A DNA stretch of 64,000 nt from a candidate division CPR2 bacterium GW2011_GWC2_39_35 (GTDB lineage: Bacteria > Patescibacteriota > CPR2). Both the position numbers and the translations under genes were made by a program. Shown here in pieces: positions 3,974-51,747 of the stretch. Each line of letters begins with the position of its first letter. The stretch's first letter is position 1. The stretch covers positions 223,563 through 287,562 of the forward strand of contig LBWX01000001.1 in assembly GCA_000995065.1 (NCBI GenBank), given 5' to 3'. A model generated the notes under the pieces. That model was given only the letters and a program-made list of their open reading frames with translations, had not been told where the DNA came from and searched no databases.

Positions 3974-4362
3974 CTCCTCCTAATCACCAAAAAGAACTAT
4001 TTTACTTTTAATGTGCATGCTAGAACTATTTCCAGCAGCCGAAGCGACCTACTCGAGGTGAAGCCAGTAGGCCGTTTCGACGGCTCGAAGATTAAAAACA
4101 AAAAAGACCCGAGCGGGTCAAGTGGTGATACAAAAGAAAATTTGTACAAAAAAATGCGACCGGTTTCACCACTAGCTCCCCGTGACCATAAGGTGACCAA
4201 ATAATAGGTCACGGATCGAAGCTTCCGCTTTATCCTGCGGGATATTTGCATATCCGTAAGGGATAAAATAATTCTAATTTAAAGTTGTTAACACCGCTAT
4301 TTTAACATTTGGTTGTTTATGTGTCAATAGTTTTCCTGAACCATTTCCTGAACCATTCCTGA

Positions 4363-4506
4363 ACCACCCTCACTTTTTTGTCATCCCCGTGAATACTTAG
4401 GATCCAGAAGGCTTGGGGACATAGTGAGCTTCCCGGATTCCCGCCTGCTCGGGAATGACAACTAGCGTTACTTTTCTTGTTTTTTAAAAAGTGAGGGTGG
4501 TTCAGG
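4363..4506. repeat. G+C-rich ~100-nt palindromic element (copy A, minus orientation relative to copy B) nested inside a perfect 18-bp inverted repeat gaaccaccctcactttttt / aaaaagtgagggtggttc followed by T-run
   Basis: Reverse complement of ~4382-4480 aligns at roughly 80% with ~10015-10112 (gtcattcccg..gcgggaatcc..ggaagc..ccaagccttctggatcc..cacggggatgac); termini gtcat...atgac inverted. Confidence 0.7.
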
Positions 4507-7825: not shown

Positions 7826-9901
7826 ATGGCAAAGAACTTACTTATAGTAGAATCGCCTGCAAAGGCCAAGACAATTGAAAAATATTTAGGAAAAGATTAC
7901 CAAGTCAAAGCAAGTTTTGGGCATATTAGAGACCTGCCAAAATCAAAGCTAGGCATTGATATTCATGACAATTTTAAACCTGAGTATATTATTCCCAAAA
8001 AATCCCAAAAAACTGTTAATGAACTAAAAAAATCGGTGTCAGCAGCTAAAAAAGTATATTTAGCCACAGACTTGGACAGAGAAGGCGAGGCTATTTCTTG
8101 GCATATACTAAAAGCAACCGGGTTAGATCATAAATCAGATAAAGTAGATCGAATTACTTTTCACGAAATTACCAAAGATGCAATCCTAGACGCTTTGGCG
8201 CACCCAAGAAAAATAAATAAAGACTTAGTAGACGCCCAGCAAGCAAGGCGAGTCTTAGATAGACTCGTGGGCTACAAGTTAAGCCCGCTTTTGTGGTCTA
8301 AGATAAGAAGAGGCTTGTCGGCCGGTAGAGTTCAGTCAATCGCCTTAAAACTTATTATTGATAGGGAAAGAGAAATTGATAAATTTGTCCCAAAGGAATA
8401 TTGGTCAATCGATGCCATCCTAGAAAAGAAAAAGAAAGAGTTTAAAGCCAGTCTTATATCCAAAAATGAGAAGAAATTAGAGATACATAACGAGAGTGAA
8501 GCAAAAGGCATCTTAAAAGATTTAGAGAATGCGGATTATATAGTTCGAGATGTAATCAAAAAAGAAGTCAAAAGAAATCCTGTAGCACCTTTTATAACCA
8601 GCACCTTGCAGCAAGATGCCGGCCGAAAATTAGGTTTTTCGGCAAAAAAAACCATGATGCTTGCCCAGCAGCTTTATGAAGGAATCGATTTGGGTCCGGA
8701 AAGTCATGTCGGCCTTATTACTTATATGAGGACAGACAGCACCAGTCTATCTGACGCAGCAATTGCAAACATCAGAAAATTAATCGAGTCCAAATACGGA
8801 AAAGAATATGTGCCTTCAAAACCAAGAGTTTTTAAAAAAGCAAAAGCGGCTCAAGAAGCACATGAAGCCATCAGGCCAACTCATATAGAAAAGGAACCGG
8901 ATAAAGTAAAACAATACTTATCAAAAGATCAATATCGCCTCTATGCTCTTATTTGGAAAAGAGCACTAGCCTCACAAATGGAGAGCGCCGTCTTAGATCA
9001 AACTTCTATCGATATAAAAGCCAGTGACTATATCTTTAGAACCACTGGGTCTATCATAAAATTTCCGGGTTTTACCAAAGTTTACGAGGAAAGTAAAGCC
9101 AGGGAAGAGCAAGAAGAAAAGAATGTTCTCCCAGAACTAGACAAAGGAGAAAAATTAAAGCTAGTTTCTCTTACCCCAAATCAGCATTTTACTTTAGCCC
9201 CGCCAAGATATTCCGAAGCAAGTTTAATTAAAGTCCTAGAAGAAGAGGGAATCGGCCGGCCATCAACTTACGCTCCGACTTTAAGCACCTTGAAGGATAG
9301 AGGCTATATTGATGTTATAGACAGAAAACTTCATCCCAAAGAGATTGGTTTTATCGTAAACGATCTTTTAGTAGAAAACTTTTCTAATATCATAAACCTT
9401 TCCTTTACGGCCCAAATGGAAAAAGAGTTTGACGAAATTGCTGAAGGCGACGTCGCCTGGCAGGAAGTGATCAAGCATTTTTGGGATCCTTTTTCTAAGC
9501 AGCTAGAAGAAAAACAAGACACAATTAAAAAAGTAGAAATGCCGGTCCAGATGACCGATGAGATCTGTCCTGATAGCGGCCACCCAATGATAATAAAGCA
9601 GGGAAGATACGGCGAATTCATGGCGTGTTCGGGTTGGCCGGAATGTAAATTTACCAAGCCCTTAGTTAAAGACTTGGGTGTTAAATGTCCGGATTGCCAA
9701 GAAGGGGACATTATCGAGAGAAGAACTAAAAAGGGCCGGATTTTTTACGGCTGTTCTACATTTCCGAAATGTAAATTTGCTTCTTGGGATAAGCCAGCGA
9801 CTAAACCATGTCCGGACTGCGAGGGTTTAATGGTTGAAAAAGGAAAAACATTGCGCTGCATAAAATGCGGTCACGAAGAACAAAAAGAAGATAATAAATA
9901 G
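7826..9901 (+). CDS. topA: DNA topoisomerase I
   Basis: MAKNLLIVESPAKAKTIEKYLG...GHIRDL Toprim, active-site region GLITYMRTDS, C-terminal multiple Cys4 zinc ribbons (CPDSG..C, CPDC..C, CPDCEG..C). Confidence 0.95.
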   Translation: MAKNLLIVESPAKAKTIEKYLGKDYQVKASFGHIRDLPKSKLGIDIHDNFKPEYIIPKKSQKTVNELKKSVSAAKKVYLATDLDREGEAISWHILKATGLDHKSDKVDRITFHEITKDAILDALAHPRKINKDLVDAQQARRVLDRLVGYKLSPLLWSKIRRGLSAGRVQSIALKLIIDREREIDKFVPKEYWSIDAILEKKKKEFKASLISKNEKKLEIHNESEAKGILKDLENADYIVRDVIKKEVKRNPVAPFITSTLQQDAGRKLGFSAKKTMMLAQQLYEGIDLGPESHVGLITYMRTDSTSLSDAAIANIRKLIESKYGKEYVPSKPRVFKKAKAAQEAHEAIRPTHIEKEPDKVKQYLSKDQYRLYALIWKRALASQMESAVLDQTSIDIKASDYIFRTTGSIIKFPGFTKVYEESKAREEQEEKNVLPELDKGEKLKLVSLTPNQHFTLAPPRYSEASLIKVLEEEGIGRPSTYAPTLSTLKDRGYIDVIDRKLHPKEIGFIVNDLLVENFSNIINLSFTAQMEKEFDEIAEGDVAWQEVIKHFWDPFSKQLEEKQDTIKKVEMPVQMTDEICPDSGHPMIIKQGRYGEFMACSGWPECKFTKPLVKDLGVKCPDCQEGDIIERRTKKGRIFYGCSTFPKCKFASWDKPATKPCPDCEGLMVEKGKTLRCIKCGHEEQKEDNK

Positions 9902-9912
9902 CTTCACATCAA

Positions 9913-9947
9913 AAAAATCGCCACGCAAAACTTGATGGCGGTTTTTT
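9913..9947 (+). terminator. probable intrinsic terminator after topA
   Basis: aaaaaaatcgccacgcaaaacttgatggcggtttttt: stem cgcca/tggcg, T-run. Confidence 0.5.
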
Positions 9948-10014
9948 ATTTAGCCAAAAAAATCTGCCAAAAGATCTAAAACACCTACACTTTTTATAAA
10001 TATAAAAGAAGCTC

Positions 10015-10112
10015 CAGTTGTCATTCCCGCGGAGGCGGGAATCCAGGAAGCACGTTGCACTTCCAAGCCTTCTGGATCCCCGTCTTCACGGGGATGACGG
10101 AAAGTGGGGGTG
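10015..10112. repeat. G+C-rich palindromic element, copy B (inverted relative to copy A at 4382-4480)
   Basis: contains hairpins attcccgc-GGAG-gcgggaat and atccccgt-cttc-acggggat; termini gtcattcccg / cggggatgac inverted; generates spurious ORFs 9950..10141(-) and 10018..10239(+). Confidence 0.7.
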
Positions 10113-10126
10113 TTCCAAGCCAAAGA

Positions 10127-10155
10127 TGTTGACAAAGTCAAATCTTAATGCTATA
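10127..10155 (+). promoter_or_regulatory. sigma-70-type promoter (TTGACA-17-TATAAT) for the 10193..14341 operon
   Basis: ttgaca aagtcaaatcttaatgc tataat, ~40 nt upstream of the start codon. Confidence 0.65.
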
Positions 10156-10192
10156 ATTTACTTGTTTATTTTTAAGCCGCTTTGCAAGCGAG

Positions 10193-11212
10193 GTGAAAAT
10201 GTCTGCTACTACCAACAAAGAAGAATTAGATTTGAATAAATTAGCCAGAGAAACTTTAGAGCTTTTAAAGAAAGAGAGAAGCCGAGAAGTTCTCTCGCTT
10301 CGTTTTGGCTTAGAAGTGCCAAAAACAACCCTCGAAAAAATTGGCCAAAGGTATGGCATTACCAGAGAGAGAGTAAGACAAATCGAAAAGGCGGCTCTAA
10401 CCAGGTTGAAAAATAATAATCTGGACAATTCAAATTCTCATAAAGAACTTTTTGATACTATTAAAGACCGTGGCGTAATTTTGCATACCGAAATAGAAAA
10501 AGACTTCGGCGCGCATCAACTAAATGCAATTCGGTTGCTTTTAAATTTATCTAACGAAATCTTAGAGGTCATTGAGGACGACAAAAAACACTCAACATTT
10601 ATACATGCCCAATACTCTCTAAAAGAAATCGAGAGTCTAATTAAACACACTTTAGATATCTTAAAAGAAACCGAAGAAGCAATCCATATAAATAAATTAC
10701 ATCAGAAACTAAAAGACAAATCTCAAATTGATTTATCGGATAATTTAGTCGAGAAGTCATTAAAAATTAGCAAGGATATTATTATTGATGATAGCTATGT
10801 TGGTCTTTCCGTATGGCCGACTATTAATCCTAAGAGCATAAAAGATAAGACATACTACGTTTTAAAAAAGGAAGGTAAGCCTCTTCACTTTTCAGAAATT
10901 GCAAACCGAGTAAGAAGCCTTTCCCAAAAACCTATCACCAAACAGGCAGTACATAACGAACTCATCAGAGATAATCGATTTGTGCTTATTGGTAGGGGAA
11001 TTTACGCACTTTCAGAATGGGGATACAATTCCGGAACAGTTGGAGATATTATTTATGACATCCTTAAAAAAGAGGAAGTTCTCCATAAAAATGATATTAT
11101 AGAAAGAGTACTGGAAAGAAGAATTGTAAAAGAAACTACAATTATCTTAAACCTTCAAAACAAAAACAAATTCAAAAGAGTAGGCAAGGCTACCTACTCC
11201 GTAAAGGAGTAA
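10193..11212 (+). CDS. DNA-binding protein with N-terminal sigma-70 region-4-like HTH and C-terminal HARE-HTH-like winged helix (probable start ATG 10199 after GAGGTG SD)
   Basis: N-term LSLRFGL..TLEKIGQRYGITRERVRQIEKAALTRLKN resembles sigma-70 region 4.2; C-term HFSEIANRV...DNRFVLIGRGIYALSEWGY resembles HARE-HTH (RpoE-delta/ASXL type) ending motif. Confidence 0.55.
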   Translation: MKMSATTNKEELDLNKLARETLELLKKERSREVLSLRFGLEVPKTTLEKIGQRYGITRERVRQIEKAALTRLKNNNLDNSNSHKELFDTIKDRGVILHTEIEKDFGAHQLNAIRLLLNLSNEILEVIEDDKKHSTFIHAQYSLKEIESLIKHTLDILKETEEAIHINKLHQKLKDKSQIDLSDNLVEKSLKISKDIIIDDSYVGLSVWPTINPKSIKDKTYYVLKKEGKPLHFSEIANRVRSLSQKPITKQAVHNELIRDNRFVLIGRGIYALSEWGYNSGTVGDIIYDILKKEEVLHKNDIIERVLERRIVKETTIILNLQNKNKFKRVGKATYSVKE

Positions 11213-11215
11213 CAA

Positions 11216-14200
11216 ATGTCTTTAGAATTAATAGTATCAATCTTTCAGGGAATTTTTAGCGTTCTTGTTTTTGTATTTACTTATACCTGGTGGATAATCG
11301 CCGCCATTTTGGCCTGGGAAACTTACCAGAATTACCGGAAAAAGGGTTGGGTAGAAAACCTTGAACATATGCTGTTAAAAGTGGAAATACCTAAAAATAA
11401 CGATAAAGGCCCCGTAGCGGCCGAAATGATGTTTGCTTCACTTCATGGGATTTTAAAAGACAAAACCGAGCAGCAAAAAGAGGGAAGCATTCAAGAGCAC
11501 ATTTCGTTTGAGATTGTTGCCACCTTAAATTCAATCCAATTTTATATTTGGGTACCGGTACATCTAAGAGATTATTTAGAAGGCCAGCTTTATGCCCAGT
11601 ATCCCTCGGCAGAAATAACAGTCGTAGATGATTATTCAACGGATATCGATATTGATGACGACGGTATTGACGACTGCGTCGCTTCTACCGAACTCGTTCT
11701 AGAAAAAGAAGACCTGCTTCCTATAAAAACTTTTCAGAGCTTTGAAGTCGATCCACTAGCCGGCATCACCAGTGTTTTAAGTAAGCTTGACGATCCTAAA
11801 GAGCAGGTTTGGATTCAAATTCTTGCTAAGCCTCATGATAATTCTTGGCAAACGAGAGCCCAAGAATATACCGACAGCACAAGAACCGGAGGTTCGGGCG
11901 GACTTAGCATTGCTTCAATTATGGGATCCATTAAAAGAGCGCCGATTTCACTTCCAAAAACTTTAATTTCAATGGCCTTAAGAGCTCCTGAACCAGCTGC
12001 CCCGACTACTGCCCCAAAACTTTCGAAGCATGAAGAAGCCGAACTAACAGCCATAGACACTAAGGCTAATAAGCTTGGCTACGACGTCAAAATTAGAATA
12101 ATGTACCTCGCCAAAACGAAAGAAAAAGCGAAGTATCGCCTTCAAGCCGTGGTTGGCAGTTTTAAGCAGTTTAATACCACCCTAAATGGTTTCACTTCCA
12201 CCGGATTAAATGAAGGCAGGGGTCCTTTAGACGAATACCGGGCCCGCTATTTTGACGCTGGTTATCTTCTAAACATCGAGGAGCTAGCCAGCATTTATCA
12301 TCTTCCCCATATCTCCGTAGAGACTCCAAATATCAATTGGGTTTCTTCTAAAAAAGCTGAGCCACCGGCAACCTTACCCGTAGAAGGATCAGCTCCACCG
12401 GACGAACTAACTCTCTTTGCTCAGACAAACTTTAGAGGAGTTAGACAAAAATTTGGCATTAAGATGGATGATCGCCGAAGACATACCTATGTAATAGGTA
12501 AGTCCGGCGTCGGTAAATCGTGGCTTCTTGCCTTACTATCTATTTCGGATATTTACGCCGGTAAAGGCGTCTGTATTATTGATCCTCATGGTGATCTAGC
12601 CGAAAAGGTTATAACCTACGTTCCGGAACATCGCATCAAGGATGTTGTTTACTTTAATCCTTCCGACACCAATTTTCCAATTGGTTTTAATACTATGGAA
12701 TGCCCAAATCCGGACTTTAAAGAAACCATCGCCTCCGGATTCGTATCTATTTTTAAAAAGCAATTCGGGTATAGCTGGGGTCCAAGACTTGAATACGTTC
12801 TAAGATACACGATCTTGGCCCTTTTAGATACTCCGGAGACCACCATGCTTGGTGTTATAAGAATGCTTACCGAAAAAAACTTTAGACAAAAAGTCATTAA
12901 GAACATTAAAGACCCGGTCGTAAAAAACTTTTGGGAAAAAGAATATGCCACTTATAATGACAGGTTTGCCACAGAAGCAGTTGCTCCGATATTAAACAAG
13001 GTTGGTCAGTTTATTGCTTCTCCTCTTATAAGAAACATAGTAGGTCAACCAATAAGCACTTTTGATATCAGAGAAATTATGGATGAGGAAAAAATATTAA
13101 TCATTAATCTTTCTTCCGGAAGAATAGGGGAGGACAACTCAGCCTTGCTCGGTGCTATGATGATAACTAAGATTCAGCTCGCCGCCATGTCGAGAGCAGA
13201 TGTTTCAGAAGAAAAACGAAAAGATTTTTATCTATATGTCGACGAGTTCCAGAACTTCGCCACAGACTCCTTTGCTAAGATATTATCAGAAGCTAGAAAA
13301 TATCGCTTAAACTTAATTGTCGCCAACCAATACATTGCTCAGATGGATGAAACAGTTAGAGACGCTGTTTTTGGAAACGTTGGAACTCTAGTATCTTATA
13401 GAGTTGGTGCTAAAGACGCCACATTCTTAGAAAACGAGTTTAGCGGCATATTTGAGTCACATGACCTAATCAATCTAGATAATCAGCATATCTATCTAAA
13501 AATGCTTATTGATGGCGTTACCAGACAGCCATTTTCGGGCAAAATATTAAACCTGCCGGAAGCCAAACTCGACCTAACAACCCAAATTTTGCAAAACTCA
13601 AGAGAACAGTATACCAAGCCCAAAACCGAGGTCGAAGAAATGATTGCCAAACTAAGCACCCAAGGAGGGCAACCGCAAAACGAAGACGGCGAGGATATTA
13701 GAGAAGAGAGAAAAGATAATAGATACGACAACAGGCCAAACTACAACAACTCGAATAACCCTAAAAGGGATTTTACGCCGCCTGCTGTAAGCGCCGAGAA
13801 CAGAATAAAGAATGCTCCTTTAAATAGACAAACGCCAAGGGATAGAGTGGAACCAGGGCATAGCGACAAATACATTGCAAGAAGTAACCAAGAAAAACCA
13901 CCCATGAAACAACCCGTGAAACATTCGTCAAATTCTTATGTCAAAACAGATCATGCCAATAATATTCATCATGATAAAAGACCAATGGGCCAAAAAAATC
14001 CTAGTGATCGCTCCTCCAATGATCAAAGAAATCAAAAGAAATTAGATGAAGAAAATATCCGTAAAGCAATTAGGGAGGCTTTAAGTAAGAAAGAGCAGAC
14101 GTCAAACCATGAAAACCGCCAGACCGAGGTAAAGGTAAAACCTGCTCATGAGCATAAACAAACCACCGAAGACAAACCAAAACATGAATCACAAAACAAT

Positions 14201-14341
14201 AACAATAAGGTAATTACGCATGAAAACTTTAAGGATATTAATGTGATCCATCCTCATGAAAAAATAATCGTTGCCGGTAACAACGTCAAAAATCCTAAAG
14301 AGTTAAATCCCGGAGAAACAATAGTATTTAATGATAAATAA
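11216..14341 (+). CDS. membrane-anchored P-loop ATPase of the VirD4/TraD/TrwB (type IV coupling protein-like) family with ~330-aa N/Q/K/E/H-rich disordered C-terminal tail
   Basis: N-terminal hydrophobic segment; Walker A IGKSGVGKS followed by CIIDPHGDL (T4CP-like P-loop...DPxG arrangement); Walker B LYVDEFQNF; tail NRYDNRPNYNNSNNPKRD...HEHKQTTEDKPKHESQNNNNK; AAGGAG SD; 3-nt gap to upstream gene. Confidence 0.5.
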   Translation: MSLELIVSIFQGIFSVLVFVFTYTWWIIAAILAWETYQNYRKKGWVENLEHMLLKVEIPKNNDKGPVAAEMMFASLHGILKDKTEQQKEGSIQEHISFEIVATLNSIQFYIWVPVHLRDYLEGQLYAQYPSAEITVVDDYSTDIDIDDDGIDDCVASTELVLEKEDLLPIKTFQSFEVDPLAGITSVLSKLDDPKEQVWIQILAKPHDNSWQTRAQEYTDSTRTGGSGGLSIASIMGSIKRAPISLPKTLISMALRAPEPAAPTTAPKLSKHEEAELTAIDTKANKLGYDVKIRIMYLAKTKEKAKYRLQAVVGSFKQFNTTLNGFTSTGLNEGRGPLDEYRARYFDAGYLLNIEELASIYHLPHISVETPNINWVSSKKAEPPATLPVEGSAPPDELTLFAQTNFRGVRQKFGIKMDDRRRHTYVIGKSGVGKSWLLALLSISDIYAGKGVCIIDPHGDLAEKVITYVPEHRIKDVVYFNPSDTNFPIGFNTMECPNPDFKETIASGFVSIFKKQFGYSWGPRLEYVLRYTILALLDTPETTMLGVIRMLTEKNFRQKVIKNIKDPVVKNFWEKEYATYNDRFATEAVAPILNKVGQFIASPLIRNIVGQPISTFDIREIMDEEKILIINLSSGRIGEDNSALLGAMMITKIQLAAMSRADVSEEKRKDFYLYVDEFQNFATDSFAKILSEARKYRLNLIVANQYIAQMDETVRDAVFGNVGTLVSYRVGAKDATFLENEFSGIFESHDLINLDNQHIYLKMLIDGVTRQPFSGKILNLPEAKLDLTTQILQNSREQYTKPKTEVEEMIAKLSTQGGQPQNEDGEDIREERKDNRYDNRPNYNNSNNPKRDFTPPAVSAENRIKNAPLNRQTPRDRVEPGHSDKYIARSNQEKPPMKQPVKHSSNSYVKTDHANNIHHDKRPMGQKNPSDRSSNDQRNQKKLDEENIRKAIREALSKKEQTSNHENRQTEVKVKPAHEHKQTTEDKPKHESQNNNNKVITHENFKDINVIHPHEKIIVAGNNVKNPKELNPGETIVFNDK

Positions 14342-14804
14342 ATAATTAAAATAGGTCGGGGGAGTGACAGAGAACTAAAGGAATGTACGACCAGAAGTAA
14401 TCCATGGCTTATGTCGCACAATGTATCTTATGCGACACTGAGTAATTATCGAATTAGACGATAAGTAAGTCATCTATTTAAATACTAGAAATGGCCCTAT
14501 AAGCGTAAAATAGCCATTTTTACATCTTTTTAACTAGTATATTATTTGCAATCATGCCCTACATTAAACATGTCTCTGTTTTATTTTTAAAAATCCTTGA
14601 GTTGCTTAAAAATTTTCTTACTAATTTATCAAAATATTTTTAAGTCTTTACTTGCTTCTCTAGCCTACTAAAAATTATTTTTCACAAAAGAATTAATTAA
14701 CAGTAACAAGGGCTTTAATTATTAATAATTAAATATTTAAATTTAAATAGCACTCCACCCTTTTTTGTGAAACAGACACTGTTTCACAGGTTTAAAACCC
14801 AAAT

Positions 14805-15611
14805 TTATTTATAGAAGATTCTATTTTCTACTCTAAGGTCAATGTATTCGATGGTTCGATTTTCTTTTTTAACTTCTTTTAAAACCCGTCCCAAGCTTTC
14901 GATCTGACTTAAAGGATCTCTAGTAGTATCAAAAAATACCTGAAAATTGCCATCGGTTTTTATTTTAAGTTCTCTCTTAAATTCATTGGTAATATTTATT
15001 TCGACTATCTTGTATCCAGTTTGGGGGAAACTGGAATTTACTTTTTCGATAAATAGCATTAAATCCGGGGTACCTACCCTATCCCCCGGACGGAGCAGCA
15101 AATTGTTGCTATCAATTACATTTATGGCATTTTCTTTAGTCTTACCCATCTCCACTACTACACCTTCGCGATCAACAACATATTTTTCACCCATAGCTTG
15201 CCAATTAAATGCTATGTCTCTTAAGGAGGCTTTTATAGATATGTCTTTTTCTTTTGCCTCTTTTGTTACCGTAACTTCTTTTAATTCCGGCATATTACTT
15301 TTTAAATGTTTCTCGAGGCTGCTTTTCGAGATAAAATAATAGTTTTTTTTAAAAAAGCCTTTACTAAAATCAGATACTTGGCTCTTTAGCTGGATGGATT
15401 GCTCGTCGCTTAGGCCGGTTATCTTCACTTCTTTTACTTGAAAGGCGCTTGAAACGAAAAACCAATAAAACAAGGTGAGGCTGCCGATTACAAAAATTCT
15501 AAAAAGATAGGCCTTAAAAGGAATTTTCTTTTTATTTGAAAAACTTCTCTTGGTCGGCTTATGAAGTAACTGCCTTCGCCCAACTTGTCTTCTTTTTCTA
15601 TTTCTTCTCAT
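14805..15611 (-). CDS. ftsQ: cell division protein FtsQ/DivIB (POTRA domain)
   Basis: basic N-terminus, single TM, POTRA-like VKEVKITGLSDEQ region; last gene of dcw-type cluster. Confidence 0.65.
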   Translation of the reverse strand: MRRNRKRRQVGRRQLLHKPTKRSFSNKKKIPFKAYLFRIFVIGSLTLFYWFFVSSAFQVKEVKITGLSDEQSIQLKSQVSDFSKGFFKKNYYFISKSSLEKHLKSNMPELKEVTVTKEAKEKDISIKASLRDIAFNWQAMGEKYVVDREGVVVEMGKTKENAINVIDSNNLLLRPGDRVGTPDLMLFIEKVNSSFPQTGYKIVEINITNEFKRELKIKTDGNFQVFFDTTRDPLSQIESLGRVLKEVKKENRTIEYIDLRVENRIFYK

Positions 15612-49582: not shown

Positions 49583-49657
49583 TGGCTGGGGTGGTAGGAC
49601 TCGAACCTACGAATGGCGGCTCCAAAAACCGCTGCCTTACCACTTGGCTACACCCCA
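49583..49657 (-). tRNA. tRNA-Gln (anticodon UUG)
   Basis: minus-strand sequence TGGGGTG-TA-GCC..GGC-A-GCGGT-TTTTGGA-GCCGC-CATTC-GTAGG-TTCGAGT-CCTAC-CACCCCA-G-CCA; 7-bp acceptor with U1:A72, G73 discriminator (Gln identity), anticodon loop uU-UUG-GA, encoded CCA. Confidence 0.9.
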
Positions 49658-50344
49658 TTAAATATTTTTACTAATTCCTTTTATCCAGCCAGCAATCTGT
49701 CGATTAAAATTTGTACTCTTACTGACACACACTCTTATCAATCCATAATAATTTTTATTTATGTGCCTATTTGTCTTTGGCCGATGCCTTTTAAAAATCG
49801 TTTTTTCGAATTCTTCGATCGGAATATTAAGTTCGTTAGACCAATATTCTAAAGCTTTGACTTCATCAGCTGACTCATGAATATGTAATCTGCATTTTAT
49901 ATCTTTTGGTGAAATATCGCAAATTTTGGTTAGCCACATTAGAAACACTTTTAACATATCCGGATCGGAATTCCCAAAGAAAACTCTCTCGGAAACATTG
50001 TATTCTTTTTGTTTTGCGCCTTCAGCCCAATAAAGACAAACACCTATAAGCCAAAGCTCTCTTTTGCTTAAATTTCCAATTTCTTTCTGGGATCTCTCCA
50101 TGATTTCATTTGTTAACTTTATTCTTTTGTGTTTTATAGTTTCAATCGCTTTAAGATGCGCTTGCTTTCTTTTTTGGGTTAGTTTTTGTTTTTGTTTGTC
50201 AGCTAATCCAATATCTCTCAACCATAACGATAAGGACGATTTAGCAACCGGAACTTCAGCCAAGATTTCATTATAAGAATATCCTTGCTGTCTTAATTTT
50301 ATCGCTTGTAATCTTTCCTCGGTTTTAGAAATCATTTGAACCAC
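49658..50344 (-). CDS. HTH-domain protein of unknown function (possible degenerate LAGLIDADG-like/homing-endonuclease-like C-terminal part, weak)
   Basis: N-terminal HTH GYSYNEILAEVPVAKSSLSLWLRD (sigma-r4/transposase-OrfA-like); downstream LIGVCLYWAEGAK segment; stop codon abuts the 5' end of tRNA-Gln. Confidence 0.4.
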   Translation of the reverse strand: MVQMISKTEERLQAIKLRQQGYSYNEILAEVPVAKSSLSLWLRDIGLADKQKQKLTQKRKQAHLKAIETIKHKRIKLTNEIMERSQKEIGNLSKRELWLIGVCLYWAEGAKQKEYNVSERVFFGNSDPDMLKVFLMWLTKICDISPKDIKCRLHIHESADEVKALEYWSNELNIPIEEFEKTIFKRHRPKTNRHINKNYYGLIRVCVSKSTNFNRQIAGWIKGISKNI

Positions 50345-50424
50345 ATTTATCTATATAAGATTATAATATTTATGGTTCATAGCTGTCAATCCTTTTAGCT
50401 TTTTATGCTAACAGCTTGTCTATT

Positions 50425-51747
50425 TTAAAACAAAACATTGATTTTGGCAATATTTTCTTTCTTGGCAGGAAACTTGCTCATTAGCATTAGCTCATCTCGA
50501 ATAAGTCTTGGGGTCAAAAAGTATTTCGAAACGATCTGCTTTCCGGCCCTCCCCATCTTTAAGCGAAGATGAGTATCTTCTAAGATCATGGCCATTCTCT
50601 TTGCGCATTCCATCGGCGAGTCAACCAAGCATCCGTTCTTGCCGTCAACAATTTGCAGTCTGATTCCTCCAACATTTCCGCCTATAACCGGCGTTTCTTT
50701 AAACATTGCCTCCGAAACCGTAAGCCCAAATCCCTCTTTAATGGATTTTTGCAAAATAATTTGCGATATGGTTTGAAAAGCATTAACTTGCTCCTCTGTT
50801 AGATCCTTAAGAATTTTTATATCCTTTTCTGTCTTAACATAATCCTTTAACTGCCTATAAATTGCCATGCCCTCAGGATCATCCGAAGCCGCCGAACCAA
50901 CTAAAGCTAGCTGAAGTTCTGGTATCCTTTTTTTAGTTATAATATAGGCCTTAATGACTCCTAGAGGATCTTTCCAGAGATCAAAGCGCGAGACCTGAGT
51001 TACAAGAGGCCGTCTGGTATCAACCCCCAATTTTTCAACAATTTTTCTTGCTCTAAGCTCGTCCATTTTTTTATTTTTTGGTGTTAAGGGATCGATAGCC
51101 GGAGGGATAACAAACCTTTTTTTGATTGGTAAGTCTCCAGGGATAAATTCCTTTAGAGAGAAAATACCGGCATCATACTCGTCTAAAAATCTTTTTAGGT
51201 AATCCCAAACAGCTTTGTTATTTGGGCTGACATGGATATGGCAGCGCCAAATAGCATTAAAATCCTTGCCGTCATAAAAGTGCGGTATTGCTAAAGGCTG
51301 AGGATCATGGAAAAAGACAAAATCCCATTGCTCTTTTTTCGCTTTTAATAAGTGCGCATTGTAAGCATTAACTCTTTCGTATAATTTCCTAGATTCCGAG
51401 TTTAAAACTATTTTGCCATTTCCCTGAAGCGCGTTATGCATGCCTTTAGTAATATCAAAGAATTCTTTTCCCGCCTCAATAACCTGCCAAGAGACATCTA
51501 AGCCCAAGTCGTGAAGCAATGGGACCTCGGAGCGCAGAATTTCGGCAACCCCTCCCCCGTTTGAGGTTGAATTAATATGAAGAATCCGAGCGCCTTTTAG
51601 GGGCTTTGCAAGCTCAATTAATTCCGAATAAAGCTCATCGGAAATAAGCCCCTTATAACTTCTTATGGATTTCGGATAGACCCTCACTTTTCGCATAGCT
51701 AGATATTCCCTCATATTTACGTTATAGGGCAAATGCTTACGTGTCAA
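50425..51747 (-). CDS. treT: GT4 glycosyltransferase of the trehalose synthase (TreT)-like family
   Basis: LAKPLKGARILHINSTSNGGGVAEILRSEVPLLHDLGLDVSWQVI...HNALQGN N-terminal region, which I recall as highly similar to archaeal/bacterial TreT; C-terminal GT4 E-x7-E region (EGFGLTVSEAMFKETPVIGGNVGG); likely start at internal ATG (~51714). Confidence 0.65.
   Translation of the reverse strand: MTRKHLPYNVNMREYLAMRKVRVYPKSIRSYKGLISDELYSELIELAKPLKGARILHINSTSNGGGVAEILRSEVPLLHDLGLDVSWQVIEAGKEFFDITKGMHNALQGNGKIVLNSESRKLYERVNAYNAHLLKAKKEQWDFVFFHDPQPLAIPHFYDGKDFNAIWRCHIHVSPNNKAVWDYLKRFLDEYDAGIFSLKEFIPGDLPIKKRFVIPPAIDPLTPKNKKMDELRARKIVEKLGVDTRRPLVTQVSRFDLWKDPLGVIKAYIITKKRIPELQLALVGSAASDDPEGMAIYRQLKDYVKTEKDIKILKDLTEEQVNAFQTISQIILQKSIKEGFGLTVSEAMFKETPVIGGNVGGIRLQIVDGKNGCLVDSPMECAKRMAMILEDTHLRLKMGRAGKQIVSKYFLTPRLIRDELMLMSKFPAKKENIAKINVLF

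What the first reader, a model, noticed from the sequence alone, without database searches (positions are those of the whole stretch)
10015..14341. Operon of a sigma-r4/HARE-HTH fusion protein and a membrane-anchored VirD4/TraD-like ATPase with a long disordered tail, next to dprA-topA
Seen in sequence:
- A canonical TTGACA-17-TATAAT promoter (10127-10155) sits immediately after a G+C-rich palindromic repeat.
- It drives two genes separated by 3 nt.
- Gene 1 (10193/10199-11212) starts with a sigma-70 region 4.2-like HTH (LSLRFGL...ITRERVRQIEKAALTRLKN) and ends with a HARE-HTH-like winged helix (DNRFVLIGRGIYALSEWGY).
- Gene 2 (1041 aa) has an N-terminal membrane anchor and an ~330-aa domain of unknown function.
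- It then has a P-loop NTPase whose Walker A (IGKSGVGKS), the immediately following CIIDPHGDL, and Walker B (LYVDEFQNF) match the layout of type IV coupling proteins / TrwB_AAD_bind.
- It ends in an ~330-aa low-complexity N/Q/K/H-rich tail.

Inference:
- I do not know of this domain combination as a described family: a region-4 HTH at the N-terminus instead of the C-terminus, joined to a HARE-HTH.
- No other T4SS genes are nearby.
- The pair sits in a DNA-processing neighbourhood (dprA ... topA), so a role in DNA uptake, export or transformation-linked DNA handling is plausible.
- A novel regulator-motor pair is an alternative reading.
Basis: partly seen in the sequence, partly recalled or inferred. 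Interest (0 to 1): 0.72.

Follow-up and report, generated by a model that had tools for sequence, protein, structure and literature searches.

The report
Conserved Patescibacterial DNA-binder plus orphan pump operon
This is a two-gene operon conserved across the ultra-small Patescibacteria (CPR): a DNA/RNA-polymerase-binding protein whose relative is essential in a cultivated species, and a membrane ATPase that combines parts of the two motor proteins of type IV secretion; neither has a known job.

Summary
A perfect TTGACA-17-TATAAT promoter (10129-10157) drives two translationally coupled genes in a candidate division CPR2 chromosome.

- **Gene 1 (10199-11212):** a sigma-70 region 4 HTH followed by four winged helices, the third a HARE-HTH.
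- **Gene 2 (11216-14341):** a membrane anchor, the "unknown" domain, a TrwB/TraD-like ATPase and a ~226-aa disordered tail. The tail is shorter than the ~330 aa reported.
- **The unknown domain:** it is Pfam DUF8128, and its predicted fold matches the N-terminal domain of VirB4.

This is not a mobile element. The pair lies between dprA-topA and the dcw cluster in several lineages. Gene 1 sits directly upstream of gene 2 in 42 of 74 assessable species loci, and the two proteins co-vary in evolutionary rate.

About 40% of gene-1 homologues carry a perfect consensus promoter, against ~0.7% of neighbouring genes.

Published Tn-seq in Southlakia epibionticum scores the gene-1 homologue as essential and the gene-2 homologue as dispensable. 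A separate, essential FtsK exists there.

G-like jumbo phages place the only non-CPR homologue found next to VirB4-like and VirB6-like genes.

Best reading: an orphan coupling-type translocase paired with an abundant DNA/RNAP-binding partner. The function is inferred, not shown.

The parts
10018..10112 (.). G+C-rich palindromic ~95-bp repeat element just upstream of the promoter. A second copy lies at ~4350-4460 on the opposite strand.
   Evidence: Sequence. Second copy found with 2 mismatches in a 20-mer, none expected by chance. The two copies are 83% identical. RNA fold -55.8 kcal/mol, z = -4.9. No Rfam match.
10129..10157 (+). Perfect sigma-70-type promoter: TTGACA, 17 nt, TG-extended TATAAT.
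   Evidence: 12/12 match. Only 12/12 site with a 17-nt spacer in the window. A perfect promoter is conserved upstream of gene-1 homologues in 16 of 41 loci and >=11/12 in 30 of 41. Among 1,022 genes of the same loci 21 have one, and 14 of those 21 are gene 1 itself.
10199..11212 (+). Gene 1, 337 aa: sigma-70 region 4 HTH followed by four tandem winged helices, the third a HARE-HTH.
10274..10411 (+). Sigma-70 region 4 (4.1 and 4.2) of gene 1, aa 26-71. Recognition helix TRERVRQIEK.
10835..11020 (+). HARE-HTH winged helix of gene 1 (aa 213-274). It is followed by a fourth winged helix, aa ~281-335, encoded at 11039-11203.
11204..11218 (+). Translational-coupling junction: AAGGAG inside the last codons of gene 1, stop TAA, 3-nt gap, ATG of gene 2.
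   Evidence: Sequence. Gaps of 1-3 nt in L001, L002 and L004.
11216..14341 (+). Gene 2, 1041 aa: membrane anchor, VirB4-N-domain-like DUF8128, T4CP-like P-loop ATPase and a disordered tail.
11222..11323 (+). N-terminal hydrophobic membrane anchor (aa 3-36), followed by RKK.
   Evidence: Kyte-Doolittle windows above 1.6 occur only at aa 1-35, apart from one window at aa 437 that begins just after the Walker A motif.
11348..12415 (+). DUF8128 (PF26449) domain, aa ~45-400, with the fold of the VirB4/TrwK N-terminal domain.
12428..13660 (+). P-loop ATPase of the FtsK-HerA superfamily, T4CP (TrwB/TraD) type, aa ~405-815. Walker A at 12497-12520, Walker B at 13232-13246.
   Evidence: TrwB_AAD_bind E 9.8e-11, DUF87 E 3e-6, TraG-D_C E 5e-5. 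SXT_TraD E 8e-13. TrwB E 2.4e-6 and DotL E 0.009 among solved structures. The motifs are nearly invariant.
13661..14338 (+). Variable, low-complexity C-terminal tail (aa 816-1041; N/K/E/P/R-rich, net charge +7, 12 His). It holds a conserved short helix (aa ~941-957) and C-terminal motifs ...IHPHEKI... and ...NPGETIVF.
   Evidence: Conservation profile. Motif alignments. Composition. C-terminal motif survey. Tails are longer where gene 1 is adjacent.
14342..14804 (.). A+T-rich 463-nt non-coding spacer between the convergent ends of gene 2 and ftsQ. It contains several short hairpins.
   Evidence: Sequence. No ORF of 60 aa or more. No Rfam match.

Best explanation
The locus is a vertically inherited core operon of Patescibacteria, not a mobile element.

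**Gene 1**
- It is a multi-HTH protein that binds DNA, RNA polymerase, or both. A copy of the primary sigma factor's region 4, with its -35-reading helix intact, is joined to four winged helices, one of the RNAP-delta (HARE) type.
- It is transcribed from a perfect consensus promoter. I infer from this that it is made in large amounts, or that it regulates itself by competing with sigma at its own TTGACA.
- It has a role of its own, because its relative is essential.

**Gene 2**
- It is translated in step with gene 1. It is a membrane-anchored ring ATPase of the type IV coupling-protein kind.
- Unlike canonical VirD4/TraD, it keeps a VirB4-type N-terminal domain. In the R388 machine that domain docks VirB4 onto VirB3/VirB8 in the inner-membrane complex.

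**Proposed mechanism (inferred)**
- Gene 2 is the coupling ATPase missing from the Patescibacterial T4SS-like apparatus, whose gene clusters lack one.
- It docks through its VirB4-like domain and pumps a polymer, most probably DNA.
- Gene 1 acts as its DNA-recognition or loading partner, in the manner of TraM with TraD. It may be engaged through the long tail and its conserved C-terminal peptide.
- This activity is dispensable in laboratory co-culture.

**Shown:** operon anatomy, domain identities and folds, conservation, co-variation, promoter conservation, and the published Tn-seq phenotypes.

**Inferred:** hexamer formation, the substrate, docking to the T4SS, the gene 1-gene 2 contact, and autoregulation.
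For: **Operon**
- Perfect promoter, Shine-Dalgarno sequences and a 3-nt gap.

**Gene 1**
- Domain hits. Confident model of region 4 plus four winged helices.
- Region 4, the HARE domain and the fourth winged helix are basic.

**Gene 2**
- T4CP profiles and TrwB.
- Intact, conserved Walker motifs.
- The N-domain and the ATPase occur as separate adjacent genes in 13 loci, so they are distinct modules.

**Coupling of the two genes**
- Gene 1 is directly upstream in 42 of 74 assessable species loci. These include Parcubacteria-type loci whose other neighbours differ.
- The distance matrices correlate at r 0.90-0.91. Partial Mantel r is 0.74-0.84 (p <= 0.0005) given topA, mraY or murG, while gene 1 against the control given gene 2 is about 0.
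- Every gene-1-linked protein has a tail of at least 72 aa, median 143 against 63.5.

**Promoter**
- 16 of 41 homologues have a perfect promoter, against a background of ~0.7%.

**T4SS link**
- In phage G and G-like contigs the homologue follows a VirB4-like gene and a VirB6-like (TrbL_4) gene, with a Replic_Relax gene nearby in the two G-like contigs.
- Patescibacterial T4SS clusters lack a coupling protein (PMC10633639).
- VirD4-like T4CP homologues occur in 2,918 of 3,035 genomes, only 148 of them near virB4 (PMC12102498).

**Tn-seq (PMC10633639 Table S1)**
- SEML1_0294 is called essential at all time points.
- SEML1_0293 is called non-essential, with normalised reads falling 5817, 2940, 1372.
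Against: - No T4SS genes lie in this 64-kb window. More than 97% of Patescibacterial T4CP-like genes are far from virB4.
- T4CP-like genes are found in more genomes (2,918) than VirB4 (2,417). Some organisms may therefore have gene 2 without a T4SS.
- The Southlakia T4SS is essential but the gene-2 homologue is not.
- Relaxases are rare: 109 in 3,035 genomes. Classical conjugative DNA processing is therefore unlikely.
- The gene-1 homologue is essential and the gene-2 homologue is not, so the main job of gene 1 is independent of gene 2.
- In Microgenomates, Dojkabacteria, Peregrinibacteria and some Saccharibacteria, gene 2 has no adjacent gene 1.
- No gene 1-gene 2 fusion was seen. The one apparent fusion was a masking artefact.
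- Mirror-tree correlations and the tail-length comparison are not corrected for phylogeny beyond one control gene.
- No complex prediction could be run.
- Orthology to SEML1_0293/0294 rests on domain coordinates and synteny, not on an alignment.
Confidence: 0.4

Rival explanations
1. The two genes are co-transcribed but functionally independent. Gene 1 is an essential general transcription factor or RNAP accessory subunit of Patescibacteria, a sigma-region-4/delta hybrid. Gene 2 does something unrelated, and their adjacency is inherited synteny.
For: - The gene-1 homologue is essential and the gene-2 homologue is dispensable.
- Both modules of gene 1 are known RNAP-binding modules: region 4, and the HARE domain of delta.
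- Gene 2 occurs without an adjacent gene 1 in 32 of 74 loci.
- A perfect promoter fits an abundant housekeeping factor.
Against: - Adjacency persists in Parcubacteria-type loci whose other neighbours differ.
- The 1-3-nt gaps with an embedded Shine-Dalgarno sequence suggest stoichiometric co-expression.
- The evolutionary distances of gene 1 track those of gene 2 and not those of the housekeeping neighbours.
Confidence: 0.25
2. Gene 2 is the cytoplasmic motor for DNA uptake (natural transformation), working with ComEC and DprA in place of ComFA. Gene 1 marks or handles the incoming DNA.
For: - dprA lies 4 kb upstream in the window and upstream in many Saccharibacteria, including Southlakia.
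- Patescibacteria are naturally competent, and competence genes are dispensable, as the gene-2 homologue is.
- There is a weak Walker-A-region hit to the archaeal DNA-import ATPase CedD, E 3.9e-5.
Against: - dprA-topA adjacency is widespread in bacteria (my own knowledge), and it is absent around gene 2 in other CPR lineages.
- Whether ComFA is absent was not tested.
- The phage G homologue sits in a T4SS-like module, not a competence-like one.
Confidence: 0.12
3. Gene 1 is essential because it restrains gene 2, either as an autorepressor of the very strong promoter or as a direct inhibitor. Loss of gene 1 would make the membrane ATPase toxic, in the manner of a regulator-effector or antitoxin-toxin pair.
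For: - The upstream gene is essential and the downstream gene dispensable.
- The perfect promoter carries a -35 hexamer that the region 4 of gene 1 is predicted to read.
- The two genes are tightly coupled.
Against: - Insertions in gene 1 should often be polar on gene 2, which would relieve any toxicity.
- Gene 2 exists without an adjacent gene 1 in many lineages.
- Near-universal vertical inheritance and strong conservation are unlike toxin-antitoxin modules.
Confidence: 0.08
4. Gene 2 is a chromosome-segregation or dimer-resolution translocase acting at the septum, as FtsK/SpoIIIE do, with gene 1 as a trans-acting sequence reader analogous to the FtsK gamma domain.
For: - Gene 2 converges on the end of the dcw cluster here and in L001, L002 and L004.
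- A Xer-type recombinase converges on gene 2 in 8 Microgenomates loci, and ruvCAB or ruvX are adjacent in others.
- Winged helices directing FtsK-like pumps have precedents (my own knowledge).
Against: - Southlakia has a separate, complete and essential FtsK, SEML1_0096, with the FtsK_SpoIIIE, gamma and 4TM domains.
- Gene 2 has no FtsK_SpoIIIE or gamma-domain hit.
Confidence: 0.05
5. The pair is a remnant of an integrated conjugative element or prophage.
For: - T4CP-type ATPase.
- A homologue exists in jumbo phage G, PHROG 5156.
- A repeat element lies next to the promoter.
Against: - The flanks are housekeeping genes: dprA, topA and the dcw cluster.
- The same position is kept in distant genomes.
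- The published T4CP count covers about 96% of Patescibacterial genomes.
- There is no integrase, relaxase or T4SS gene in the window.
- No match was found in viral contigs.
Confidence: 0.02

Closest known systems
Type IV coupling proteins TrwB (R388), TraD (F, SXT) and VirD4
   Same: - N-terminal membrane anchor.
- P-loop NBD that scores with TrwB_AAD_bind, TraG-D_C and SXT_TraD. TrwB is the best solved relative.
- Long variable C-terminal tail with a conserved terminal peptide, as in F TraD, whose tail binds TraM (my own knowledge).
   Different: - A ~355-aa VirB4-N-domain-like module lies between the anchor and the NBD.
- It is encoded in a housekeeping neighbourhood without T4SS or relaxase genes.
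- It is vertically inherited across a phylum.
VirB4/TrwK/TraC, the signature T4SS ATPase
   Same: - The overall order is the same: an N-terminal domain of the same fold followed by an FtsK-HerA-type ATPase.
- A membrane anchor is fused in front, as in the VirB3-VirB4 fusions of some systems (PMC12102498).
   Different: - No sequence-level match to VirB4-specific models or to TrwK. The ATPase is closer to T4CPs.
- It is not clustered with VirB3, VirB6 or VirB8.
Bacillus jumbo phage G gp156, with gp155 and gp153 (PHROG 5156)
   Same: - Full-length homologue: 25.5% identity, 92% coverage, E 1e-50, and it carries PF26449.
- It is called 'TraD-like' in PMC12484599.
   Different: - In the phage it directly follows a VirB4-like (TraC-like) gene and a TrbL_4 (VirB6-like) gene, with Replic_Relax nearby in the G-like contigs.
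- It has no gene-1 homologue upstream and no long tail (825 aa).
SEML1_0294 / SEML1_0293 of Ca. Southlakia epibionticum ML1 (Wang et al. 2023)
   Same: - Same two architectures: PF04545 + PF05066, and PF10412/PF12696/PF01935 at matching coordinates.
- They are adjacent and downstream of dprA...topA.
   Different: - Different class (Saccharimonadia, against CPR2 here).
- Orthology is inferred from architecture and synteny; the sequences were not aligned here.
- In that paper the first ~360 aa of SEML1_0293 were left without a domain assignment.
RNA polymerase delta subunit (RpoE) of Firmicutes
   Different: - No acidic C-terminal tail.
- Twice the size.
- It has a sigma region 4 and three further winged helices.
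Region 4 of primary sigma factors (RpoD/SigA)
   Same: 51% identical to region 4 of a CPR RpoD, with the TRER(I/V)RQIE helix intact.
   Different: No regions 1.2, 2 or 3, so it cannot act as a sigma factor. The region 4 is at the N-terminus.
F-plasmid TraM-TraD (DNA-binding accessory protein plus coupling protein)
   Same: Functional analogy only: a DNA-binding protein encoded with a coupling ATPase whose C-terminal tail could be the docking site (my own knowledge).
   Different: TraM is a ribbon-helix-helix tetramer with no homology to gene 1. No oriT or relaxase is present here.

Membership tests
Type IV coupling protein (VirD4/TraD/TrwB) | N-terminal transmembrane anchor | tested here: met
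   The hydrophobic stretch at aa 3-36 followed by RKK is the only membrane-anchor candidate; one further window scores high at aa 437, just after the Walker A motif.
Type IV coupling protein (VirD4/TraD/TrwB) | P-loop NBD homologous to TrwB, with Walker A and B | tested here: met
   TrwB_AAD_bind 41.6 bits against a cut-off of 20.5; TraG-D_C 23.6 against 22. TrwB E 2.4e-6. Motifs conserved.
Type IV coupling protein (VirD4/TraD/TrwB) | All-alpha domain inserted between Walker A and B | tested here: inconclusive
   About 240 aa lie between the motifs, and the TrwB alignment spans them with gaps. No structure was predicted for this part.
Type IV coupling protein (VirD4/TraD/TrwB) | NBD follows the membrane anchor directly (canonical architecture) | tested here: not met
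   A ~355-aa VirB4-N-domain-like module intervenes.
Type IV coupling protein (VirD4/TraD/TrwB) | Encoded with T4SS (mating-pair formation) genes or a relaxase | tested here: not met
   None in the 64-kb window. Only 148 of 5,713 Patescibacterial T4CP-like genes are near virB4. The feature is met for the phage G homologue.
Type IV coupling protein (VirD4/TraD/TrwB) | Required for substrate transfer through a T4SS | not testable with these tools
   Needs genetics. The published Tn-seq shows only that it is dispensable for growth.
VirB4/TraC ATPase | VirB4-type N-terminal domain | tested here: met
VirB4/TraC ATPase | ATPase domain matching VirB4-specific profiles (CagE_TrbE_VirB, P-loop_TraG/AAA_10) | tested here: not met
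   No such Pfam or NCBIfam hit at E <= 1. No TrwK sequence hit.
FtsK/SpoIIIE | FtsK_SpoIIIE motor domain, gamma winged helix and 4TM N-terminus | tested here: not met
   No hits. Southlakia carries a separate, complete FtsK.
HerA | HerA central ATPase domain with an N-terminal HAS barrel and a NurA partner | tested here: not met
   Only a weak DUF87 hit, E 3e-6. The N-domain is VirB4-like. No NurA-like neighbour was seen.
Pfam DUF8128 (PF26449) | Match to the family model | tested here: met
   Precomputed on the 100%-identical database protein P0121 and on all listed homologues; named DUF8128. The model is absent from the local Pfam copy.
Sigma-70 family sigma factor | Region 2 (core binding, -10 recognition) in addition to region 4 | tested here: not met
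   Only region 4 matches. The rest folds as winged helices.
RNA polymerase delta subunit (RpoE) | HARE-HTH N-terminal domain | tested here: met
RNA polymerase delta subunit (RpoE) | Acidic, disordered C-terminal half; small size (my own knowledge) | tested here: not met
   337 aa, fully folded at pLDDT 91 apart from the first 7 residues, net charge +9.
Known anti-phage defence systems (PADLOC) | Full-length match to a system component, with its partner genes present | tested here: not met
   Only domain-level hits: the region 4 of MzaA, and the ATPase cores of mad8 and HerA. No partner genes are present.

The most novel reading that the evidence does not exclude
Gene 2 represents a third, previously unrecognised branch of T4SS-type motors: a VirB4-N-domain plus VirD4-type ATPase hybrid that may be close to the ancestor of coupling proteins. 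In Patescibacteria it would have been domesticated as a chromosomal, phylum-wide DNA pump. Gene 1 would be a new class of essential bacterial factor, a free-standing sigma region 4 joined to delta-like winged helices, that reads -35-like sequences and physically links promoters or RNAP-bound DNA to that membrane pump. The pair would mediate DNA exchange or scavenging between the epibiont and its host.
Probability: 0.15. Interest if true: 0.85.

Novelty: new variant of a known kind. Interest (0 to 1): 0.62.

Why it matters
Patescibacteria are a large share of bacterial diversity, and most of their conserved, lineage-enriched genes have no function assigned.

- **A pair with experimental handles.** In the one genetically tractable species, both inferred homologues are listed as core, Patescibacteria-enriched families. 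One is essential and the other costs fitness only slowly.
- **A structural hypothesis for the missing coupling protein.** If the 'unknown' domain really is a VirB4 docking domain, that would explain how an orphan coupling-type ATPase could plug into the essential T4SS-like machine, whose clusters lack a coupling protein.
- **A possible evolutionary intermediate.** The architecture sits between VirB4 and VirD4.
- **Direct tests for gene 1.** Its near-intact sigma region 4 and its conserved perfect promoter suggest clear experiments: autoregulation, binding to the RNAP beta-flap, and genome-wide occupancy of -35 elements. These could reveal a new general transcription or nucleoid factor.

Tried and rejected
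1. **FtsK replacement.** Rejected. Southlakia has a complete, essential FtsK, and gene 2 has no FtsK domains.
2. **Integrated element or prophage.** Rejected. The flanks are housekeeping genes with conserved synteny, the window has no T4SS, relaxase or integrase, and viral contigs gave no hit.
3. **Gene 1-gene 2 fusion in L008.** An apparent Rosetta-stone fusion turned out to be a run of masked N.
4. **Sequence-level link between DUF8128 and VirB4.** Not found. A profile search of PDB sequences hits only TrwB and DotL through the ATPase. The link is by fold only.
6. **Enrichment of TTGACA in the window**, as possible gene-1 sites. None: 32 found against 28 expected.
7. **Rfam on 9850-14850.** Only a sub-threshold chance hit.
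8. **Defence-system membership.** Only domain-level PADLOC hits.
9. **AlphaFold-database fold search.** That library was unavailable.
10. **Literature.** No paper mentions DUF8128, and none was found on a region 4 + HARE-HTH protein in Patescibacteria.
11. **Link between C-terminal motifs and gene-1 adjacency.** The strict PG[EDQ]xVxF motif is enriched where gene 1 is adjacent (9 of 38 against 1 of 29, p 0.03). Looser versions also occur without gene 1, so this is not decisive.
12. **Dependence on dprA-topA.** Gene 2 lies in quite different DNA-metabolism contexts in other lineages.

Full report
**1. What is in the sequence**

The window is a chromosome segment of a candidate division CPR2 bacterium. 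Both proteins are 100% identical to database entries from CPR2 genomes.

- topA ends at 9901.
- A ~95-bp G+C-rich palindrome follows at about 10018-10112. As RNA it folds at -55.8 kcal/mol, z = -4.9. A second copy, 83% identical, lies upstream of dprA on the other strand.
- Next comes a perfect, TG-extended promoter, TTGACA-17-TATAAT, at 10129-10157.
- Gene 1 most probably starts at the ATG at 10199, 5 nt after a GAGG. It ends at 11212.
- Its last codons contain AAGGAG. Gene 2 starts 3 nt after the stop, at 11216, and ends at 14341.
- A 463-nt A+T-rich spacer then separates gene 2 from the convergent ftsQ-murC-murG-ftsW-mraY-ftsI cluster.

**2. Gene 1**

- Pfam gives Sigma70_r4 (E 2.4e-15, aa 26-71) and HARE-HTH (E 2.7e-7, aa 213-274), both above threshold.
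- NCBIfam models of RpoD, RpoS and MzaA match only through their region 4. The RNAP delta model scores 40.2 bits against a cut-off of 42.
- AlphaFold2 with 47 homologues gives a confident model (pLDDT 91, pTM 0.76). It shows region 4 followed by four winged helices at aa 79-136, 141-203, 214-271 (the HARE domain) and 281-335.
- The recognition helix TRERVRQIEK is invariant in the family. Region 4 is 51% identical to that of a Daviesbacteria RpoD.
- From my own knowledge of sigma-70/-35 complexes, these are the residues that read TTGACA.
- Region 4, the HARE domain and the fourth winged helix are basic. The first two winged helices are acidic.
- Gene 1 is not a sigma factor, because it has no region 2. 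It is not a delta subunit, because it has no acidic tail.

**3. Gene 2**

- A single hydrophobic stretch (aa 3-36) is followed by RKK, which places the rest of the protein in the cytoplasm.
- Foldseek independently ranks 14 TrwK chains first, at E about 4e-6 and probability 1.0. There is no sequence-level signal.
- The query lacks a P-loop, so I infer that the match is to the N-terminal domain of VirB4. The residue alignment was not shown.
- The ATPase (aa ~405-815) is of the coupling-protein type: TrwB_AAD_bind, TraG-D_C, SXT_TraD, TrwB and DotL all match. Its Walker motifs are conserved.
- Beyond aa ~815 conservation collapses.
- The tail nevertheless keeps a short helix of the type (V/I)DxEELKKIIQK and C-terminal motifs...IHPHEKI... 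and a terminal (P)G(E/D/Q)x(V/I)xF.
- In 13 Parcubacteria-type loci the anchor plus DUF8128 (431-528 aa) and the ATPase plus tail (526-732 aa) are separate adjacent genes. They are cut exactly at the linker.
- An exhaustive search finds 2,205 clusters carrying DUF8128. Many are 410-550 aa long, which is consistent with split forms, although some may be fragments.

**4. Conservation and context**

- Each protein has more than 7,800 database homologues.
- In L001, L002 and L004 the pair has the same order, 1-3-nt gaps and the same convergent dcw cluster. topA lies upstream in L001 and L002, with dprA beside it in L001.
- Among 83 non-redundant loci (79 from species-representative genomes, 4 from protein look-ups), gene 1 is directly upstream of gene 2 in 42. 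It is absent there in 32, and 9 could not be assessed.
- Adjacency holds in Saccharibacteria, CPR2 relatives, Nomurabacteria and Parcubacteria-type loci. In the last group no other neighbour is shared.
- Gene 2 stands without an adjacent gene 1 in several lineages:
  - Microgenomates: nrdJ, pduO, a small ORF, gene 2, then a convergent Xer recombinase in 8 loci.
  - Dojkabacteria-like loci: gene 2, yebC, ruvC, ruvA, ruvB.
  - Peregrinibacteria: rplI, ruvX, gene 2.
- Pairwise distances of gene 1 and gene 2 correlate at r 0.90-0.91. The partial Mantel r given topA, mraY or murG is 0.74-0.84 (p <= 0.0005). Gene 1 against the control, given gene 2, is about 0.
- Tails are longer where gene 1 is adjacent: median 143 against 63.5 aa. 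That comparison is not phylogenetically independent.

**5. The promoter is a conserved feature**

- Within 200 nt upstream of gene-1 homologues, 16 of 41 loci have a 12/12 consensus promoter and 30 of 41 have at least 11/12.
- Among 1,022 genes in the same loci, 21 have a perfect promoter, and 14 of those are gene 1 itself. The background is about 0.7%.
- This suggests very high expression, selection on the -35 hexamer as a site for gene 1's own region 4, or both. Both readings are inference.

**6. Published experiments**

In Ca. Southlakia epibionticum ML1 (PMC10633639, Tables S1 and S2):

- SEML1_0294 carries PF04545 and PF05066. SEML1_0293 carries PF10412, PF12696 and PF01935 at matching coordinates. 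The two are adjacent and downstream of dprA...topA.
- Both are flagged as core and Patescibacteria-enriched.
- 0294 is called essential at all time points.
- 0293 is called non-essential, but its normalised reads fall 5817, 2940, 1372.
- A complete FtsK (SEML1_0096) is essential.
- The essential T4SS cluster lacks recognisable coupling and relaxase proteins.

PMC12102498 reports:

- VirD4-like T4CP homologues in 2,918 of 3,035 Patescibacterial genomes, only 148 of the 5,713 genes being near virB4.
- VirB4 in 2,417 genomes.
- Only 109 relaxases.
- The remark that exaptation of the T4CP cannot be ruled out.

That count averages about two per genome, so it may not be limited to the gene-2 family. 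I inferred orthology of the Southlakia genes from architecture and synteny, not from an alignment.

**7. A relative inside a T4SS-like module**

- PHROG 5156 matches gene 2 over aa 91-819 (E 5.8e-87).
- Its type member is Bacillus jumbo phage G gp156: 25.5% identity, 92% coverage, E 1e-50.
- In phage G and two G-like contigs the gene follows a VirB4-like gene (DUF87 + P-loop_TraG) and a TrbL_4 (VirB6-like) gene. Replic_Relax lies nearby in the two G-like contigs.
- PMC12484599 calls the phage pair TraC-like and TraD-like, of unknown function.
- Beyond about 28 G-like relatives, the next-best hits to gp156 are Patescibacterial, among those that are labelled.

**8. Most likely mechanism**

- Family membership implies that gene 2 forms a membrane-anchored ring that uses ATP to move a polymer.
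- It combines a T4CP-type motor with the domain that docks VirB4 onto VirB3/VirB8. It takes the coupling-protein position in the phage module. The Patescibacterial T4SS lacks such a protein.
- Together these make an orphan coupling ATPase for that apparatus the best-supported reading.
- From my own knowledge, VirD4 is dispensable for T-pilus biogenesis in Agrobacterium. Dispensability of gene 2 is therefore compatible, if the essential T4SS role is pilus-mediated.
- Gene 1 is a DNA/RNAP-binding protein with an essential role of its own.
- Conserved co-translation, co-variation and the tail association suggest that it also serves gene 2, plausibly as the element that presents DNA.
- I put this at 0.4. 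The rivals and their probabilities are listed separately.

**9. Comparison and novelty**

- Gene 2 works like a T4CP but fails two canonical membership features: its architecture and its genomic association. It shares the N-domain fold and domain order with VirB4, but not VirB4's ATPase signature.
- It is best filed as a new variant, a VirB4-N/T4CP hybrid equivalent to the DUF8128 family.
- Gene 1 is a catalogued but uncharacterised architecture.
- I found no earlier description of these points: the fold assignment of DUF8128, the split-gene forms, the conserved pairing and co-variation with gene 1, the conserved perfect promoter, and the phage G module as context.
- Already known: the widespread T4CP-like genes encoded away from virB4, and the Tn-seq phenotypes.

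**10. Limits**

- No complex prediction, no ATPase-domain structure and no phylogeny were possible.
- The AlphaFold-database fold library was unavailable.
- The co-variation and tail statistics are only partly controlled for shared ancestry.

Noticed in passing
window 10018-10112 (+) and ~4350-4460 (-): A ~95-bp G+C-rich palindromic element occurs twice in an otherwise A+T-rich window, each time in an intergenic region upstream of an operon (gene 1 and dprA). The copies are 83% identical, fold very stably, and have no Rfam match. It looks like a MITE/REP-type repeat.
   Followed up: partly
L057-L059, L067, L069, L072, L073, L075, L076, L079, L082-L084 (for example L057 9857-11242 and 11259-12899): In Parcubacteria-type genomes gene 2 is split into two adjacent ORFs, anchor+DUF8128 and ATPase+tail. 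They are cut at the EPPxNLP / FAETNFRG linker and usually form a three-gene operon with gene 1.
   Followed up: partly
L085 (Bacillus phage G, record 87772-93336), L086, L087: G-like jumbo phages carry a conserved T4SS-like module: TrbL_4 (VirB6-like), a VirB4-like ATPase and the DUF8128 ATPase, with a Replic_Relax gene and a metallopeptidase nearby in L086 and L087. In L086 a complete sigma factor gene follows directly.
   Followed up: partly
L055, L061, L064, L066, L070, L074, L080, L081 (for example L055 12617-13480, - strand): In Microgenomates a Xer-type tyrosine recombinase converges on the gene-2 homologue in 8 loci. A small acidic ORF of 131-154 aa with no Pfam hit sits immediately upstream in place of gene 1, after nrdJ and pduO.
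   Followed up: partly
L040, L045, L049 (for example L040 9881-16495); L050 and L052: In Dojkabacteria-like loci the gene-2 homologue heads a same-strand run: gene 2, yebC, ruvC, ruvA, ruvB. In Peregrinibacteria it directly follows ruvX.
   Followed up: partly
window 14342-14804: An unusually long (463 nt) A+T-rich non-coding spacer lies between the convergent ends of gene 2 and ftsQ. It has several short hairpins and no ORF of 60 aa or more.
   Followed up: no
window 49658-50344 (-), promoter region ~50345-50425: The only other gene in the window with a 12/12 consensus promoter (16- or 18-nt spacer) within 200 nt upstream is a 228-aa ORF with no Pfam hit, next to tRNA-Gln (49583-49657).
   Followed up: no
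L036-L038 (for example L037 6737-12811): Some Saccharibacteria keep dprA, topA and gene 2 followed by Cas9, as in Southlakia, but have no gene 1 between topA and gene 2. This is notable because the Southlakia homologue of gene 1 is essential.
   Followed up: no
L008 8423-8839: A run of masked N in the stored genome record makes gene 1 and gene 2 look like a single fused ORF. This is an artefact to beware of in automated fusion searches.
   Followed up: yes
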